Of a stretch of 29,477 nucleotides of DNA, positions 14,964-26,676 are shown in pieces. The stretch lies in the IMG/VR virus record IMGVR_UViG_3300025839_000040, positions 1 to 29,477 of that record. One strand, 5' to 3'. Made by a program: the position numbers and the translations under genes. The stretch's first letter is position 1. Each line of letters begins with the position of its first letter. Source of the DNA: a virus (taxonomy: Duplodnaviria; Caudoviricetes). Under the pieces are notes generated by a model. The model was not told the origin of the DNA. It did not search any database and worked only from the letters and a program-made list of their open reading frames with translations.

Positions 14964-15173
14964 ATGCTTACCGTATATATTGCCCGCATGGGGCATGACG
15001 AGATCACACTGCAAGTCGAGGAGGGGACACGCGTCCGTGACGTACTTACTCGCTCGGGGATGAGTCTATCGGGAAGCGAGCAAGCGTACGTGTCGGGAGT
15101 TTCCGCAACCATGACGAGTATTGTAGAAGATGGAGACATTATTAGCATTGTAACGCCAAAGCAAGCGGGATAA
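14964..15173 (+). CDS. Ubiquitin-like (beta-grasp) protein with exposed C-terminal Gly
   Basis: MLTVYI...EITLQVEEGTRVRDVL...VEDGDIISIVTPKQAG; ThiS/MoaD/Ub-type strand pattern; operonic with E2, JAB and E1. Confidence 0.85.
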   Translation: MLTVYIARMGHDEITLQVEEGTRVRDVLTRSGMSLSGSEQAYVSGVSATMTSIVEDGDIISIVTPKQAG

Positions 15174-15181
15174 TGCCAAGC

Positions 15182-15215
15182 GCAAAAGGTCCCCGCTCGG
15201 GGGCTTTTTGCTTTT
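15182..15215 (+). terminator. Intrinsic terminator/attenuator between Ubl and E2
   Basis: GCAAAAGGTCCCC-GCTC-GGGGGCTTTTTGC followed by TTTT. Confidence 0.75.
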
Positions 15216-15246
15216 ATCAGCGACACAAAATAATCATAGAATCAAT

Positions 15247-16473
15247 ATGACAACCGTGGAAGCAGAAAAGGCCGAAGCAGTCGGGGGGGATATGAGACAA
15301 GTGTCACCGCTGGACATGATCGACGGCAAGCCCGTCCGAGTTTCGGTGGTAGGAATGGAGACTATAGACACACTATCAAAAATAGTAGACTCTAAAAAAA
15401 GAGATCATCTAGAAGCGATTAGCCGCGCGGAGAGATTTGCGGTCACTTATGACGATCGTATCAAAAACAATAGAAGTCAAATCGAGTCATTAAAAAATGA
15501 GATTAAGGAATACCAACACCGAGTTAAGGAATGTAAAGCGGAAGCGTCCAAACTGAAAAAACAAAAGATTGACACCGTGGACATGGCCCGAGTCTACGAG
15601 CGGTTACGTGGTCATAAGTTAATACAAGGGATCGTGCCAGTCACAGATAGTAGAATACGGGTATTTTTAGCGCCCGTATATACAAATGCGCAAATAGAAG
15701 ATGGTAGCAAAGCCCGCTCGCGGATGTTTGTCGCCTGTTTTTCGGTAGTGCTGGAAGCTGGAAGATTCAGCACGGGCAATACCGTTAGAATCGAAAATAT
15801 ATCGTTTCCTGGCTTGCGCCATTGGTCGGTAAATAGCGAGGGCCAACCGTGTTGGGGTGATTGGGAGGACGATATGCGGACAGCCTGGAATAGTGGAGAC
15901 TTGTACCATTTTATCACACTGATACATGCGTACTTATCGAGTAACAAGGACGAAGCCGCCTATACTCGGACGTACTCGTACCGAGCACAAAGGATTGAAA
16001 CCATAAAAGAGTTAGGAAAAGAGTTAGGAACAATTAGCAAAAGCGAACACGGAGGACGATACGCTATATATTTCGGGGGAGATGGTAACAACCGTGACCT
16101 AAACGAAAAACCAATCGCGCCGATGGTGGGGATGGTGCCGCCGTATGCTGGATCATTTGGACTACGTTTCATTGGCCCAGTTGATTGTAATACGTATTGG
16201 AATATCCCAGGGGACGAAACCAGTGACCGAGATTGGCATGTCCAAGAGTCAGCCTGTCAGCTACTAGGCGAGGAGCAGGCCGAGGAGATAAAAAATATCA
16301 TGGCCGAGTGTAGTACACAGTCAGACGACATACAGAGAGAGATAATGAGTGCGTGGTGTAAAGATAAAATGGAAGAGGTGACACCGACGGTCGAGTCATT
16401 ATTGCATTATTTAGACACCGCAAAAAGCGTACCATACGAGCTAATTGCTCGCCCGTTACGTATAAAAAAATAA
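15247..16473 (+). CDS. Coiled-coil + prokaryotic E2-like conjugating enzyme + C-terminal domain
   Basis: HWSVNSEGQPCWG resembles the E2 HPNV-x3-G-x2-C active site and is followed by two helices; operon context supports it. Start moved to MTTVE. Confidence 0.7.
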   Translation: MTTVEAEKAEAVGGDMRQVSPLDMIDGKPVRVSVVGMETIDTLSKIVDSKKRDHLEAISRAERFAVTYDDRIKNNRSQIESLKNEIKEYQHRVKECKAEASKLKKQKIDTVDMARVYERLRGHKLIQGIVPVTDSRIRVFLAPVYTNAQIEDGSKARSRMFVACFSVVLEAGRFSTGNTVRIENISFPGLRHWSVNSEGQPCWGDWEDDMRTAWNSGDLYHFITLIHAYLSSNKDEAAYTRTYSYRAQRIETIKELGKELGTISKSEHGGRYAIYFGGDGNNRDLNEKPIAPMVGMVPPYAGSFGLRFIGPVDCNTYWNIPGDETSDRDWHVQESACQLLGEEQAEEIKNIMAECSTQSDDIQREIMSAWCKDKMEEVTPTVESLLHYLDTAKSVPYELIARPLRIKK

Positions 16474-16477
16474 GTGT

Positions 16478-17326
16478 ATGAAACTTCAAATTGAAAACAA
16501 AGTATGGCAAAAAATCGCGGGATACGTAGATAATTGCCAGTATGAGATTGGAGGAATGGGAGAGATCGTTTGTAACGGTCAAGACTTTTTAGTTACAAGC
16601 GCGGAGATACTAAGACAAAAAGTCACCGCGAGTCACGTAGATATGACCGCCGAAACGATGGCACAGTTTCAAGTTGAAAAGATCAAAGCGGGGCAAAGTG
16701 TTAAAGACTACAAGTTTTGGTGGCACAGTCATGCAAAAATGGACGTATTTTTCTCGGCTACTGATACCGCTACGATAAACGCGAGTCGAGCTGAGTTCCC
16801 GTGGATGGTTTCTTTTGTTACCAACCACAAACATGAAATGACCGCCCGCCTGGACATATACCAACCAGTGCACGTTCATGTGGAATTGGAGATCGAAGTG
16901 ATCGATGACGCGGATCAGTCAATCATTGACGCATGTATTGCCGAGATTAAAGAAAAAGTCACTATGCCCGCTATATTTTCGGGAGCGGGATACGGGTACC
17001 CGTACCGCCCGAGCGGATGGGAAAGCCCATACCAGCTAGAAGATGAGGACGATACCGTGCCAACCAGGAGGACCACGCAAACAAAAAAGGACGAGAAAAA
17101 ACGCACGTCCCTTGCTAAGGAGCTAAAGAAAAAGGAAGCGTTACTCGCAAAATATGAAAGGATCGGAACAATAAAACCAAGCATCATAGACCGCCTGGAA
17201 GCGGATATCGCGTCCATTAGTTTTGAGTTAGACAAGTTTACCCCCGTGGACGATATCGAGTCAGACAAGGACGGGGATCCAACCGCACCGAGCACTGCAC
17301 CATTATACAGAGGTTTGCTCGGATAG
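16478..17326 (+). CDS. JAB/JAMM (MPN+) metalloprotease
   Basis: Catalytic Glu (YEIGG) and exact HxH-x7-S-x2-D (HSHAKMDVFFSATD); long charged C-terminal tail. Confidence 0.92.
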   Translation: MKLQIENKVWQKIAGYVDNCQYEIGGMGEIVCNGQDFLVTSAEILRQKVTASHVDMTAETMAQFQVEKIKAGQSVKDYKFWWHSHAKMDVFFSATDTATINASRAEFPWMVSFVTNHKHEMTARLDIYQPVHVHVELEIEVIDDADQSIIDACIAEIKEKVTMPAIFSGAGYGYPYRPSGWESPYQLEDEDDTVPTRRTTQTKKDEKKRTSLAKELKKKEALLAKYERIGTIKPSIIDRLEADIASISFELDKFTPVDDIESDKDGDPTAPSTAPLYRGLLG

Positions 17327-17327
17327 T

Positions 17328-17972
17328 ATGGCAAAAAAGAAAATACACTACGACCGCCAATTAAGTATATACAACCCCGAGAACCATACAGGCGTATGTA
17401 TAGCGGTTATTGGACTCGGGAATATAGGGAGCAACGCGGTATTGCAGTTGACACGGTTAGGGGTGAGTAAGTTTGTGCTATACGACCATGACACAGTAGA
17501 AGCGCACAACCTATCAAGCCAGCACTTTGACTTACGCCACATTGGAAAGTTGAAAGTGGACGCGATCAGCGAGCAGATGCGGGCCCTAAATCGAGATATT
17601 GAGATCACCGCCAACCCCACAGAGTACCAAGGGGAGCACGTACAAGCGAACATACTGCTATCATGTGTTGATAGCCTGGACGCTAGGCGCGCGATCCTCG
17701 CGGGTATGGTAGCAAATAAGTATGACCCATTTGTGATTGATGGACGCGCGGGAGGTGGTCAGATCGAGGTATATAGCCAAAAAGCGAGCGAGTGGGGTAA
17801 AACGATCCCCGCCGAGGGAGACACTGACCCATGCGGAGCACGTTTCATCTGCTACGCAAGCGCGATCATTGGGGCATTTATGACCAACCAGGCGAAGCGT
17901 CATATCCTCGGACAACCAGTCAAGCCCGCCGTACTCTTTCATTGTGACACATACCAGCTATTGACCCCGTAG
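17328..17972 (+). CDS. ThiF/MoeB/E1-like activating enzyme
   Basis: YDRQ, GLGNIG nucleotide-binding loop, DHDTVEAHNLSSQ, GKLKV, CVDSLDAR, IDGR; candidate catalytic Cys in DPCGA. Confidence 0.92.
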   Translation: MAKKKIHYDRQLSIYNPENHTGVCIAVIGLGNIGSNAVLQLTRLGVSKFVLYDHDTVEAHNLSSQHFDLRHIGKLKVDAISEQMRALNRDIEITANPTEYQGEHVQANILLSCVDSLDARRAILAGMVANKYDPFVIDGRAGGGQIEVYSQKASEWGKTIPAEGDTDPCGARFICYASAIIGAFMTNQAKRHILGQPVKPAVLFHCDTYQLLTP

Positions 17973-17981
17973 TATCCCGTC

Positions 17982-18005
17982 AGAGTGGCCCGCTCGGGCC
18001 ATTCT
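17982..18005 (+). repeat. Hairpin after E1 with the same CCC-GCTC-GGG core as the post-Ubl hairpin
   Basis: AGAGTGGCCC-GCTC-GGGCCATTCT; no U-tract. Confidence 0.7.
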
Positions 18006-18075
18006 ATACGGTATAGTACCGCATGATCCTTGAAAATTGCATATATATACCATTATCAGTGTCTTAAACGATCCT

Positions 18076-18291
18076 ATGAAATTATACGGGAGGACCAGGA
18101 CGGAGCGAGCAGAAAAGGGCCAAGGGGGGAATAGTTACATTGAGACAATACACACGGTAGAACACGACGATAAGACCCGCGAGGACGTTGCGACGACCAC
18201 TATCGAGCGCGTCCAAGACGAGTATGTGATACGTCATATACCAGTCAGATCAGATTCTATCGTGACCCGCATCCCTATACGTAAAACATAG
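18076..18291 (+). CDS. Hypothetical phage protein
   Basis: MKLYGRTRTERAEKGQGGN...; ATG start preferred over the upstream TTG. Confidence 0.6.
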   Translation: MKLYGRTRTERAEKGQGGNSYIETIHTVEHDDKTREDVATTTIERVQDEYVIRHIPVRSDSIVTRIPIRKT

Positions 18292-18296
18292 ATAGT

Positions 18297-18419
18297 ATGA
18301 GGGAGTGTCTATGCACCGCCGTAGCATACTTTCCCCTATGCCCGCGACACGGTAAAAACCGCAAAAAGCGACAAACACAAAAAACCAAAGCCCGCCAGGG
18401 CGAAACGGTAAAAAGTTAG
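18297..18419 (+). CDS. Small basic protein with CxC...CxxH motif (40 aa)
   Basis: Manual translation MRECLCTAVAYFPLCPRHGKNRKKRQTQKTKARQGETVKS; ends right at the terminator. Confidence 0.45.
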   Translation: MRECLCTAVAYFPLCPRHGKNRKKRQTQKTKARQGETVKS

Positions 18420-18421
18420 AA

Positions 18422-18462
18422 AAGCAAAAAGCCAGTACGATATACGTAGTGGCTTTTTGCTT
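18422..18462. terminator. Bidirectional intrinsic terminator
   Basis: AAGCAAAAAGCCA-G-TACG-ATATA-CGTA-G-TGGCTTTTTGCTT between convergent units. Confidence 0.85.
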
Positions 18463-18481
18463 GCTCGCTTTTAGGCCGTAA

Positions 18482-18864: not shown

Positions 18865-19107
18865 TTAGGGCATTTTTTTTAAGATTCCCATAAGGTAGGC
18901 GTACGTGGTGATCCCGCGACCCTGCGCTATCTTATGGGCTTCCCTTATTTTATACTCGGTCATATTTTTTATAAAGGGTAATCGCCACACCACTTTTCCG
19001 TAGATGGGTTCCAGTTCAGCACAGAGTTCTTGAAATTCGTGGGTGTGTTTTGATTGTGGTTTACTGGGTAATGAAGGCAAGAGGTCACTGATTGATTTCA
19101 TACCCAT
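18865..19107 (-). CDS. Small DnaD/replisome-organiser C-terminal-like protein
   Basis: KIREAHKIAQGRGITTYAYLMGILKK resembles the DnaD-domain YxxxIL helix. The start may be 19101. Confidence 0.5.
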   Translation of the reverse strand: MGMKSISDLLPSLPSKPQSKHTHEFQELCAELEPIYGKVVWRLPFIKNMTEYKIREAHKIAQGRGITTYAYLMGILKKMP

Positions 19108-19774
19108 TTATTTTATCACCTAGAGTGACGGGTGAAATGGGTAGGGTGTGGATTACTCACGGGCTGGTGGGGAAGGTGGTCTTACGACATCTCAGGTTTT
19201 ACCCTAATTCAATCCCCCAACAACCAACGAGTACTGTGTGATGTGCTTTGTGCGGCCCAGTGGGTTTTCATATCCCCCGACACTTTTGACGTATTACTGT
19301 GCATACACCGAGAACGCACACAACACACCACTGTTTTGATGATTGGCTTGCGTCTTTATGAGATATTTCGGACTCATGCCCGATAAGCTTTCCTGTAATG
19401 TATACGTTACAGGCCTCCATCTCATAAAGATTCTAACCAACCATCATTTCTTTTACTAGAATACACGTTTTGGTGGGTTTTTCAATTTATTTTTCCACAG
19501 CTCCACTTTTACCTCGTATGTATGCGGGAGTCAGTAGATGGGCCTTGATTGTGTAGTAATGTAGCTCCCTTTAACTCCACAGCTAAGGTTGATAGCTACG
19601 AGCCTATGCTCCGATACTGAACAGATGGCAGGGACAGAGTGGACAACTGTTTTTCCCTGCTTTCGCATCAATACCTGAATAAAGGCTTAATTGATTTATT
19701 GGACAATGTTTTACATCGAGTGGCCCAATCAGATGTTCTTACTAATCCAGTTGTACACTGGCAGTTGCAGGGGT
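19101..19774. ncRNA. Candidate structured RNA / origin region
   Basis: No credible ORF. Many complementary segments, e.g. 19101-19109/19135-19143, 19353-19364/19419-19430 (perfect 12 bp), 19392-19413 near-palindrome, GCAGGGA 19628-19634 with TCCCTGC 19654-19660. Confidence 0.45.
19750..19774 (+). repeat. Left arm of 25-bp inverted repeat flanking the RNase H gene
   Basis: GTTGTACACTGGCAGTTGCAGGGGT; its reverse complement matches 20218-20242 at 22/25. Confidence 0.85.
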
Positions 19775-19777
19775 TTT

Positions 19778-20209
19778 TTAATTAACTGACGGGACCTTGA
19801 TTTTTTCCGTAGAATAAATCCGAGTCAACTCATCAGCTTTGCTATTAAGGTATCGAGGTATCAATTTACCACGTATATCAGAAAATTCTGACACTAATTG
19901 TTTTGCGTACTTTGCGTATGGTACGTATGCTCCGTTTTTTATTCGCCAGTGCCGAAACATTTGACTAATAACCAACTTACTATCACCCATAACTTGAATT
20001 GATTGTTGGTGTTTATTGTTTTCTTTTAACCACAATAATCCCATAATCAATCCGCCGTACTCTGCCACATTGTTTGAAGTATTCGTTTCATCCATTGTGC
20101 CGTACATGCTATAGGTGGTTTTACCATCTTCTTCAATGTGGAAGCCGAACGTGGCGATTCCACCTGGGTTTTTAGGCCCGCATCCACCATCAAAATACAT
20201 TTGAATCAT
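19778..20209 (-). CDS. rnhA: Ribonuclease HI
   Basis: FDGG..NPG, NNVAEY, GDSKLV, PRxxNxxAD: full D-E-D-D set. Start at MIQMYFDG. Confidence 0.92.
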   Translation of the reverse strand: MIQMYFDGGCGPKNPGGIATFGFHIEEDGKTTYSMYGTMDETNTSNNVAEYGGLIMGLLWLKENNKHQQSIQVMGDSKLVISQMFRHWRIKNGAYVPYAKYAKQLVSEFSDIRGKLIPRYLNSKADELTRIYSTEKIKVPSVN

Positions 20210-20217
20210 TGTTGTGC

Positions 20218-20242
20218 ACCCCTGCAACTGTCAATGAACAAC
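20218..20242 (-). repeat. Right arm of 25-bp inverted repeat flanking the RNase H gene
   Basis: ACCCCTGCAACTGTCAATGAACAAC; on the minus strand it contains the SD-like AGGGGT 8 nt before the rnhA ATG. Confidence 0.85.
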
Positions 20243-20270
20243 ACAAAAACCCCGCAATTAAGCGAGGTTT
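20243..20270 (-). terminator. Terminator/attenuator in the leader upstream of rnhA
   Basis: Minus strand AAACCTCGC-TTAATT-GCGGGGTTT-TTGT. Confidence 0.6.
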
Positions 20271-20524
20271 AAGTGATGCCGTACTGAGTGTACGAGAGAA
20301 GCAACGAAAATCGCGGTTTCTTTCCTACATACAGGACTTATCATTTTGTAATAAGTTGTCTAGTTGTACGGCTGGGGAAAACTCATTCCCTCACCGCGCC
20401 ACGTATGCTACCATTTATAGACCAGAAACGGCGGCGTGTCCACCCGTACTGAACGGCAATTTCCGAACCTTGCTAGTCACAAGTGCCAGCGGAATGAGAA
20501 GCTCTGAAACGCCAATCTAGGCTT

Positions 20525-26166: not shown

Positions 26167-26676
26167 ATGAACTATTGGTTAATCTCAGACACCCACTTCG
26201 GTCATACTAATCTTGACAAGTGGGGGCAACGTAGCGGTAATTGGCAAGAACAGCTATGGGCTGGGATAGCCAGCATACCTGACGGCGACACACTCATTCA
26301 CCTGGGCGACATCTGCATGGGTGATGATGAGGATGTACATGTAAAACTAGACTCAGTTACGTCACACCTAAAGAGCCGTGTACTCGTGCGCGGAAATCAC
26401 GACAAAAAGTCCTTTACTTGGTACAACAAGTACTGGGACTTTGTGTGTGACGGGCTAGACCTGGTGTACATGGGCAGGTATCTTCACCTCACTCACCGAC
26501 CAGCGCAACCGTGCGGTAACAGCACATGGAATATCCATGGCCACACACACGGCAAGATTCACCACAGCGAGGAGTACGTTAGTTGGTATTCTAAAGACTA
26601 CCATATCGACATTTCCCCCGAGCTGGTTGGTTTCAAGCCGTTGCGGTTGGATTTACTCTTAAAAAACTACAATTAA
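26167..26676 (+). CDS. Calcineurin-like metallophosphoesterase
   Basis: SDTHFGH, HLGD, GNHD, THRP, HGHTH motifs. Confidence 0.92.
   Translation: MNYWLISDTHFGHTNLDKWGQRSGNWQEQLWAGIASIPDGDTLIHLGDICMGDDEDVHVKLDSVTSHLKSRVLVRGNHDKKSFTWYNKYWDFVCDGLDLVYMGRYLHLTHRPAQPCGNSTWNIHGHTHGKIHHSEEYVSWYSKDYHIDISPELVGFKPLRLDLLLKNYN

What the first reader, a model, noticed from the sequence alone, without database searches (positions are those of the whole stretch)
19750..20242. RNase HI gene bracketed exactly by 25-bp inverted repeats
Seen: 19750-19774 and 20218-20242 are reverse complements at 22/25 positions. One arm lies 3 nt past the stop and the other 8 nt before the ATG, and the latter contains the gene's SD-like AGGGGT. 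No transposase or recombinase is in the window. Inference: the ORF is a passenger looped out of a stem in a larger structured RNA, like an intron-loop ORF. Alternatives are that the pairing shuts off translation once the gene is transcribed, or that this is an invertible/exchangeable cassette.
Basis: partly seen in the sequence, partly recalled or inferred. Interest (0 to 1): 0.75.

Follow-up and report, generated by a model that had tools for sequence, protein, structure and literature searches.

The report
RNA stem clamps phage RNase gene
A phage gene for an RNA-cutting enzyme sits between two complementary 25-base arms that likely pair in the RNA and close the gene into a loop; the same short arm core flanks an unrelated gene in another phage, so the arms likely form a reusable gene clamp, probably cut by a double-strand RNase.

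Summary
The repeat is real: 22/25, beyond 30 of 30 shuffles, and the strongest gene-bracketing helix among 325 phage ORFs. It encloses an archaeal-type RNase HI gene with all four active-site acids. It is one unit in a ~1.3-kb row of predicted stem-closed modules. Two neighbouring RNA modules recur in other uncultured phages with paired changes. A related phage has three more ORF-bracketing stems and one ORF-less stem. Best reading: an RNA clamp that makes the gene a stem-closed, swappable module, likely cut by host RNase III, working like rRNA processing stems or intervening sequences. Not supported: the SD claim (4 of 39 other genes have one), shut-off of translation (pairing is predicted to free the AUG), inversion and an intron. 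There are no RNA data, and DNA of the closest RNase H relatives could not be fetched. This scan already noted gene-bracketing stems on other phage DNA. New here are the cargo, a nuclease type reported to cut dsRNA, and the mixed RNA/ORF array. The window lacks 37 nt that other assemblies carry.

The parts
20218..20242 (-). 5' arm of the clamp helix; inner 9 nt are the core shared with G012; also holds a perfect -35-like hexamer at 20234-20229
19778..20209 (-). RNase HI gene, 143 aa, archaeal (Sulfolobus-like) type, four active-site acids present; loop GC 0.386 against 0.457 for the window
19750..19774 (-). 3' arm of the clamp helix
20337..20362 (-). promoter-like site (-35 and extended -10, 9/12) complete in the full allele L012:3811-3838; its -10 is cut by the 37-nt gap of the window
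20276..20337 (-). 3' half of module 1, a predicted 90-nt three-way-junction RNA; its 5' arm is the 37 nt missing from the window
20247..20270 (-). intrinsic-terminator-like hairpin whose U-tract runs into the 5' arm
19601..19687 (-). module 0: predicted long irregular hairpin, 30 pairs
19458..19485 (-). weak promoter-like site (9/12) just before module A
   Evidence: chance level is 7.7 such sites in the 3.5 kb scanned
19337..19446 (-). module A: 26-pair basal helix, three-way cap
19238..19331 (-). module B: 22-pair basal helix, three-way cap; homolog in L115/L117 with a four-way cap
19154..19233 (-). module C: 18-pair basal helix, three-way cap; homolog in L116 with a four-way cap
19213..19251 (-). 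most conserved block (end of B, linker, start of C), shared with L115/L117, L116 and a further contig in runs X1, X3, X19
19101..19143 (-). predicted hairpin that covers the start codon of the 80-aa gene
18865..19107 (-). 80-aa gene after the array; weak fold likeness to the DnaD/DnaB_2 domain (lead only)

Best explanation
The two 25-base arms flank the RNase HI gene and likely pair in the transcript, closing the gene into a 443-base loop as one unit in a row of predicted stem-closed modules; a double-strand RNase (most likely host RNase III) would cut the stem and release the gene as its own end-paired message. Shown: the repeat, its exact bracketing, the intact enzyme gene, homologous neighbouring modules with paired changes, and the same 9-bp core around an unrelated ORF in another phage. 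Predicted: the helix itself, and that it displaces a local hairpin that hides the AUG, so only fully transcribed copies are open for translation. Inferred by analogy only: read-through of the upstream terminator, cleavage by RNase III, protection of the released ends by the GC-rich inner core, and exchange of cargo between phages by ordinary recombination.
For: Beyond chance; top of 325 ORF flank pairs, z -6.1 within its genome. Helix probability 0.99 for the inner 12 bp once both arms are present. Five other modules of 80-110 nt around it have 17-30-pair basal helices, above the 11-bp minimum for E. coli RNase III (PMC1540722). Modules B and C recur in IMG/VR records: B has 1 both-sided change in 12 positions, C has 3 both-sided and 2 one-sided changes in 18, with different caps. 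G012 (L122:5697-6077) has the identical 9-bp inner helix around an unrelated 126-aa ORF; chance about 2e-6 to 8e-6 over 325 ORFs, and its outer helix pairs at 11 of 14 positions in register with different sequence (permutation p 0.012). G005 has three ORF-bracketing stems and one ORF-less stem in a row. L115 and L117 are identical over about 630 columns of their array but differ in one ~130-nt cap. Precedent: an ORF-bearing 23S intervening sequence with a 28-bp terminal stem is cut mid-stem by RNase III (PMC4990558).
Against: No RNA run holds the stretch, so neither transcription nor cutting is shown (one search gives no evidence either way). A terminator-like hairpin lies directly before the 5' arm, and the arm holds a perfect -35 hexamer (10/12 site) in which 2 of the 3 arm mismatches fall; a transcript from there would lack the 5' arm. 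G.U against A.C mismatches in 12 helices is 11:5, p 0.1, so RNA-level pairing on the sense strand is not proven by strand bias. The G012 case is a single independent example, found after ranking, with no similarity beyond the 9-10-nt core. None of 78 distant RNase HI loci (up to about 50% identity) has such arms, and DNA of the 13 close homologs (52-71%) was not available. The E. coli box determinants match at best 4 of 6. Other intergenic gaps of the window also fold well (z down to -5.9). A weak promoter-like site before module A suggests that modules A-C may be a separate transcript. The host and its RNase III were not identified.
Confidence: 0.58

Rival explanations
1. Uncut translational switch or stabiliser: the arms pair only to expose the start codon after the whole gene is made, or to shield the ends, with no nuclease cut. 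This is the opposite sign to the first reader's shut-off idea.
For: AUG unpaired 0.01-0.09 in the nascent RNA against 0.71 with the helix; weaker same trend in G012 (0.37 to 0.62).
Against: No such switch in two G005 brackets (0.28 to 0.27, 0.78 to 0.82); non-coding modules and an ORF-less module have like stems, which a translation switch does not explain.
Confidence: 0.15
2. The phage's own RNase HI cuts the stems, including the one around its own gene, giving feedback control and maturing the small RNA modules.
For: Nearest solved relative is Sulfolobus tokodaii RNase HI, reported to cleave dsRNA with Asp125 needed (review PMC9719913); the matching D126 is invariant in 14 of 14 close homologs. 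RNase III controls itself by cutting its own mRNA (PMC3867540).
Against: Arrays with shared modules in G010, G011, G012 have no RNase H match (0 of 3, all fragments), nor has G005, so the stems do not need this enzyme. D126 is a general active-site residue. The review calls the Sulfolobus case the only one reported.
Confidence: 0.1
3. DNA-level element: two inverted copies of a promoter/operator motif, or ends of an invertible or mobile cassette.
For: Perfect -35 hexamer in the 5' arm; a box-like 8-mer occurs 4 times in 1.5 kb of the full allele against 8 times in the other 28 kb; loop GC is lower than the genome.
Against: No joints in contigs of 8 runs (contigs drop rare variants); no integrase or resolvase; no target-site duplication; outer arms in G012 differ in sequence but stay paired, which a protein-binding DNA site would not require.
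Confidence: 0.09
4. The ORF is an insertion in a loop of one large ornate RNA or intron that folds and acts as a unit.
For: About 1.3 kb of mostly structured sequence; peripheral caps vary while stems are kept.
Against: No Rfam match; modules fold in series with no common closing helix; a terminator-like and a promoter-like site interrupt the row; other phages share only some modules, followed by different ones; no split gene flanks the region.
Confidence: 0.05
5. RNA-primed replication origin: the structured RNA forms an R-loop that RNase HI trims to a primer, as recalled for ColE1; the arms are incidental.
For: The array lies before a gene with weak DnaD-like fold; in G012 the clamped ORF lies before replication genes O and DnaB; I saw no initiator family among the window ORFs scanned.
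Against: Homologous modules lie elsewhere in other phages (before terminase in G011, after a NinG-like gene in G012); does not explain the bracket.
Confidence: 0.03

Closest known systems
ORF-containing intervening sequences (IVS) of bacterial 23S rRNA, excised by RNase III (PMC4990558, passages read)
   Same: An ORF of about 430-440 nt in the loop of a 25-28-bp imperfect terminal stem inside a longer structured transcript; lower GC than the genome.
   Different: Here the host transcript is a phage array, not rRNA; the cargo is an intact enzyme; cutting is not shown.
Leader-trailer processing stems of 16S and 23S pre-rRNA (own knowledge; RNase III processing of rRNA precursors noted in PMC3867540)
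   Same: Long-range helix that brackets a unit within a polycistronic RNA, several in a row.
   Different: Cargo is a protein gene or a small multi-way-junction RNA; units are mosaic between phages.
Phage T7 early-region RNase III signals (five sites in a ~7000-nt precursor, PMC3867540)
   Same: Phage polycistronic RNA with serial double-stranded processing signals.
   Different: T7 signals are local hairpins between genes (recalled); here the helix encloses the gene.
Sulfolobus tokodaii RNase HI (PDB 2ehg, 3aly; dsRNA cleavage per PMC9719913)
   Same: Same RNase HI subtype, N-terminal motif and four acidic residues.
   Different: Phage-borne, in a distinct clade of 14 proteins (52-71% identity); dsRNA activity untested.
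Gene-bracketing stems noted earlier in this scan (e1-6111902, e1-6100174, e1-6083415, e1-9927058, e1-9726604, e1-5925055)
   Same: Same layout on other phage DNA; unchecked AI notes, not independent support.
   Different: Here one ORF module sits among non-coding modules, in an SD-poor phage, and the cargo is a nuclease.

Membership tests
Type 1 RNase H (archaeal/Sulfolobus-like RNase HI) | Profile match and four acidic active-site residues | tested here: met
   NF041175 E 1.4e-34 (119 bits, under the 140 cut-off), PF13456 over cut-off; D7, E50, D76, D126
Type 1 RNase H (archaeal/Sulfolobus-like RNase HI) | Cleaves RNA of RNA/DNA hybrids; dsRNA cleavage in the Sulfolobus enzyme | not testable with these tools
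   needs an assay
rRNA intervening sequence (IVS) | Terminal inverted repeats forming a long stem around an ORF | tested here: met
rRNA intervening sequence (IVS) | Inserted in a 16S or 23S rRNA helix | tested here: not met
   no rRNA or other Rfam match in the flanks
RNase III processing stem | Helix of at least 11 bp, best about 22 bp | tested here: met
   23 pairs in 25 positions; length rule from PMC1540722
RNase III processing stem | Distal and proximal box determinants of E. coli RNase III | tested here: inconclusive
   best 4 of 6 for this stem and for G012; no null computed; host enzyme may differ
RNase III processing stem | Staggered cuts in the stem in vivo or in vitro | not testable with these tools
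   no RNA run listed
Group I or group II intron with loop ORF | Catalytic core matching Rfam models, and a host gene split into exons | tested here: not met
   (no match even at E 5-10); no split ORF on the sense strand
GOLLD/ROOL/OLE-type large ornate RNA | Match to the Rfam model | tested here: not met
Insertion sequence or invertible segment | Recombinase or transposase, target-site duplication, two orientations | tested here: not met
   cargo is an RNase HI, not a DDE transposase by profile
Retron or UG27-type RT with ncRNA array | Reverse transcriptase gene at the locus | tested here: not met
   PF00078 in 0 of 5 records incl. G000 and G001, which together cover about the whole phage
TIGR-Tas stem-loop array | Nop-domain protein and repeated box C/D units | tested here: inconclusive
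   PF01798 in 0 of 3 records, but that model may miss Tas proteins; modules here are not repeats of one unit

The most novel reading that the evidence does not exclude
A phage of ultra-small bacteria carries a mosaic operon of stem-closed RNA modules, and one module encodes its own processing enzyme: an RNase HI that cuts double-stranded RNA, matures the small RNAs and cuts the clamp around its own gene. This would be the first in vivo role for dsRNA cleavage by an RNase H and a self-limiting nuclease cassette that can be swapped for other genes within the same clamp.
Probability: 0.12. Interest if true: 0.82.

Novelty: new variant of a known kind. Interest (0 to 1): 0.5.

Why it matters
It shows, in one locus, that phages can treat a protein gene and a small structured RNA as the same kind of unit: cargo in the loop of a processing-type stem. 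A short clamp core reused around unrelated genes offers a simple route for gene exchange and for per-gene control of message ends in phages that hardly use Shine-Dalgarno signals. The neighbouring modules B and C are a small RNA family absent from Rfam 15. The locus also gives a direct substrate-enzyme pair to test whether Sulfolobus-type RNase HI cuts dsRNA for a purpose.

Tried and rejected
No RNA holder listed among 24 runs; no evidence on expression. Rfam: nothing near a gathering score; no tRNA or tmRNA. BLAST of the region against INPHARED phages and PLSDB plasmids: short chance hits only. Single-protein scans of IMG/VR with RNase H and the 80-aa protein found nothing; GTDB scans with the 80-aa alignment and with a flank motif of the unknown contig found nothing. 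RNase H alignment scans gave 91 loci; 81 were given to the arm test, 79 scored, and 0 of 78 non-self loci exceeded 15 of 20 pairs. Three homologs of the 80-aa gene have neither RNase H nor the array upstream. G001 lacks the region only because the contig breaks there, so it is no empty allele. A 20-letter arm-gap-arm pattern gave 3 of 3 hits inside coding DNA; an empty-hairpin pattern gave 0 of 113 loci; the core with a 380-410 gap gave 0 of 5 records. Two of 5 hits of the 16-mer scan were chance hits in genes. A two-sequence covariance model found no further family member in 342 kb. Strand bias of wobble pairs not significant. Folding of the ORF itself against synonymous shuffles is z -3.1, second of 26 genes, so suggestive only. 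The idea that the 39-nt match in runs X1/X3/X19 is a CRISPR spacer was dropped because its two flanks are not the same repeat; its nature is open.

Full report
Observation. The arms at 19750-19774 and 20218-20242 pair at 22 of 25 positions, 443 nt apart, 3 nt after the stop and 8 nt before the ATG of a minus-strand 143-aa ORF. Thirty of 30 dinucleotide shuffles of the window reached at most 20 of 25 within 600 nt. It is the best long-range helix on either strand and the best of 325 ORF flank pairs from the window, the missing part of its genome and eight other phage records. The arms are identical in a second assembly, L012.

The gene. It is an RNase HI of the archaeal type: best NCBIfam model NF041175 (under its cut-off), best solved relatives Sulfolobus RNase HI, all four acidic residues present. 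Thirteen proteins at 52-71% identity form a close group; their DNA could not be fetched. A review (PMC9719913, passages) reports that the Sulfolobus enzyme cleaves dsRNA in vitro and needs Asp125, which aligns with D126 here; the primary paper was not held. The phage has head, tail, lysis and ubiquitin-like genes. G001 supplies the ~9.4 kb missing from the window. No reverse transcriptase, integrase, resolvase or Nop domain was found. Only 4 of 39 other genes listed have an SD-like motif, so the purine run in the arm is unlikely to be an SD. About half of Parcubacteria lack the anti-SD motif (PMC9297842, passages); a CPR host is my inference, not a result.

The window is a short allele. L012 and all 7 runs that cover position 20337 carry 37 more bases there (one only as a loose end). 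Several of these runs may be the source of this DNA. The extra bases complete a promoter-like site and the 5' arm of a 90-nt module. No run lists a joint, so contigs show neither inversion nor an empty site; contigs drop rare variants.

Surroundings. In the full allele the sense strand reads: promoter-like site, module 1 (z -6.9 with the terminator), terminator-like hairpin, clamp with RNase H, module 0, a weak promoter-like site, modules A, B, C, a leader hairpin and an 80-aa gene. Each module is closed by an irregular helix of 17-30 pairs; four have three-way caps. Rfam has no match. Control: other intergenic gaps of the window also reach z -3 to -5.9, so folding energy alone is not special.

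Homologs of the neighbours. A 16-mer scan of IMG/VR, prompted by a 36/39 match in another contig, gave 5 hits; 3 are true homologs in non-coding DNA (L115 and L117, nearly identical, and L116) and 2 are chance. L117 carries its own 740-nt row of stem-closed modules (z -7.2) and shares the stem of B; L116 shares the stem of C. By hand pairing, B has 9 identical pairs, 1 both-sided change and 2 unpaired positions of 12; C has 11 identical, 3 both-sided, 2 one-sided and 2 broken of 18; the caps differ. L115 and L117 differ almost only in one ~130-nt cap, which looks like cargo exchange. These three records are fragments without RNase H.

The clamp with other cargo. In G012, the record of L117, an unrelated 126-aa ORF (L122:5697-6077) is flanked by the same 9-bp core on both sides, 17 nt before the ATG and 9 nt after the stop. 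Chance over 325 ORFs is 2e-6 to 8e-6; the outer helix pairs at 11 of 14 positions in the same register, with 7 both-sided differences from the window (permutation p 0.012). Limits: one independent case (G010 is a cut copy of it), noticed after ranking, no similarity beyond the core, so the outer arms may not be homologous. In G005, which shares terminase and capsid with the window phage, three consecutive stems bracket one, one and two ORFs and a fourth has no ORF. Six of the eight other records show no bracket beyond z -3.0, and 0 of 78 distant RNase HI loci have arms.

How it likely works. Folding predicts the inner 12 bp at probability 0.99 once both arms exist. Before that, a local hairpin hides the AUG (unpaired 0.01-0.09); afterwards it is open (0.71). 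So pairing would switch translation on, not off; G012 shows a weaker trend and two G005 brackets none. The helix length suits RNase III (11 bp minimum, about 22 bp for full contact; PMC1540722, abstract and passages), though E. coli box determinants match only 4 of 6. The closest worked-out case is an ORF-bearing 23S intervening sequence cut in the middle of a 28-bp stem (PMC4990558, passages); T7 early RNA has five RNase III signals and RNase III cuts its own mRNA (PMC3867540, passages). I commit to: RNA clamp, cut by host RNase III in the variable outer half, leaving the GC-rich core to hold the ends (0.58). Cutting, read-through and end protection are inferred.

Against. No RNA data. The terminator-like hairpin just upstream and a 10/12 promoter-like site whose -35 lies in the 5' arm, holding 2 of the 3 arm mismatches, allow a transcript without the 5' arm. 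Wobble bias is 11:5, p 0.1. Modules A-C may be a separate transcript.

Known or new. It works like rRNA processing stems and intervening sequences but is not a member of either. My seven relevant paper searches (listings, plus passages of 10.64898/2026.09.22.753630, PMC10690425 and PMC12045711) showed no phage RNase H gene in such a stem; PMC1950709 (passages) added nothing and PMC12286853 was seen as a listing only. The supplements of PMC10690425 (about 10,000 viral RNA candidates) were not examined and may hold modules B or C. This scan noted gene-bracketing stems before on other phage DNA; the first of those notes led me to the bracket scan and the RNase III reading. Verdict: real; new variant of a known kind; interest 0.5. 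The bold reading, a self-processing dsRNA-cutting RNase H, has probability about 0.12.

Noticed in passing
window 20337: The window lacks 37 nt present in L012 and in all 7 runs that cover the site; the gap removes the -10 of a promoter-like site and one arm of module 1. Likely an assembly slip or a rare allele.
   Followed up: yes
window 19154-19331; L117:1414-1501; L116:18-125: Modules B and C: a small structured-RNA family absent from Rfam 15, with conserved stems and variable multi-way caps; the 35-39 nt across the B-C junction are the most conserved part.
   Followed up: partly
runs X1, X3, X19, contig matching window 19213-19251: Another element holds the B-C junction block at 36/39 with unrelated flanks; in two runs the contig ends 27-37 nt later, as at a repeat. 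Identity unknown.
   Followed up: partly
L117:1815-2054 and L115: A 240-nt module with a perfect 12-bp base and tRNA-like arms by eye; its inner ~130 nt differ sharply between two otherwise identical phages.
   Followed up: no
L108:1282-2990 (G005): Four consecutive stem-closed modules in an early operon, three with ORFs and one without; each has a short purine-rich motif just inside the 5' arm.
   Followed up: partly
L107:14336-16053 (G004): Major capsid gene split after about codon 22 by ~650 nt that carry a 149-aa ORF; looks like an intron with an endonuclease gene, but Rfam gave no match at gathering score.
   Followed up: no
window 14964-17972: Operon of a 69-aa protein, a 421-aa coiled-coil protein, a JAB-domain and a ThiF/E1 gene: likely a phage-borne ubiquitin-like conjugation system.
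   Followed up: no
window 17975-18480: Another well-folding gap region (z -5.9) with a bidirectional terminator-like hairpin at 18422-18462.
   Followed up: no
L122:6314-6387 (G012): Stem-closed non-coding module directly before the replication gene O, downstream of the clamped ORF.
   Followed up: no
window 26167-26676: Metallophosphoesterase gene folds better than synonymous shuffles (z -3.8, lowest of 26 genes).
   Followed up: no
L109:12419-13480 (G005): Capsid gene flanks pair at z -3.9 in the bracket scan; not examined.
   Followed up: no
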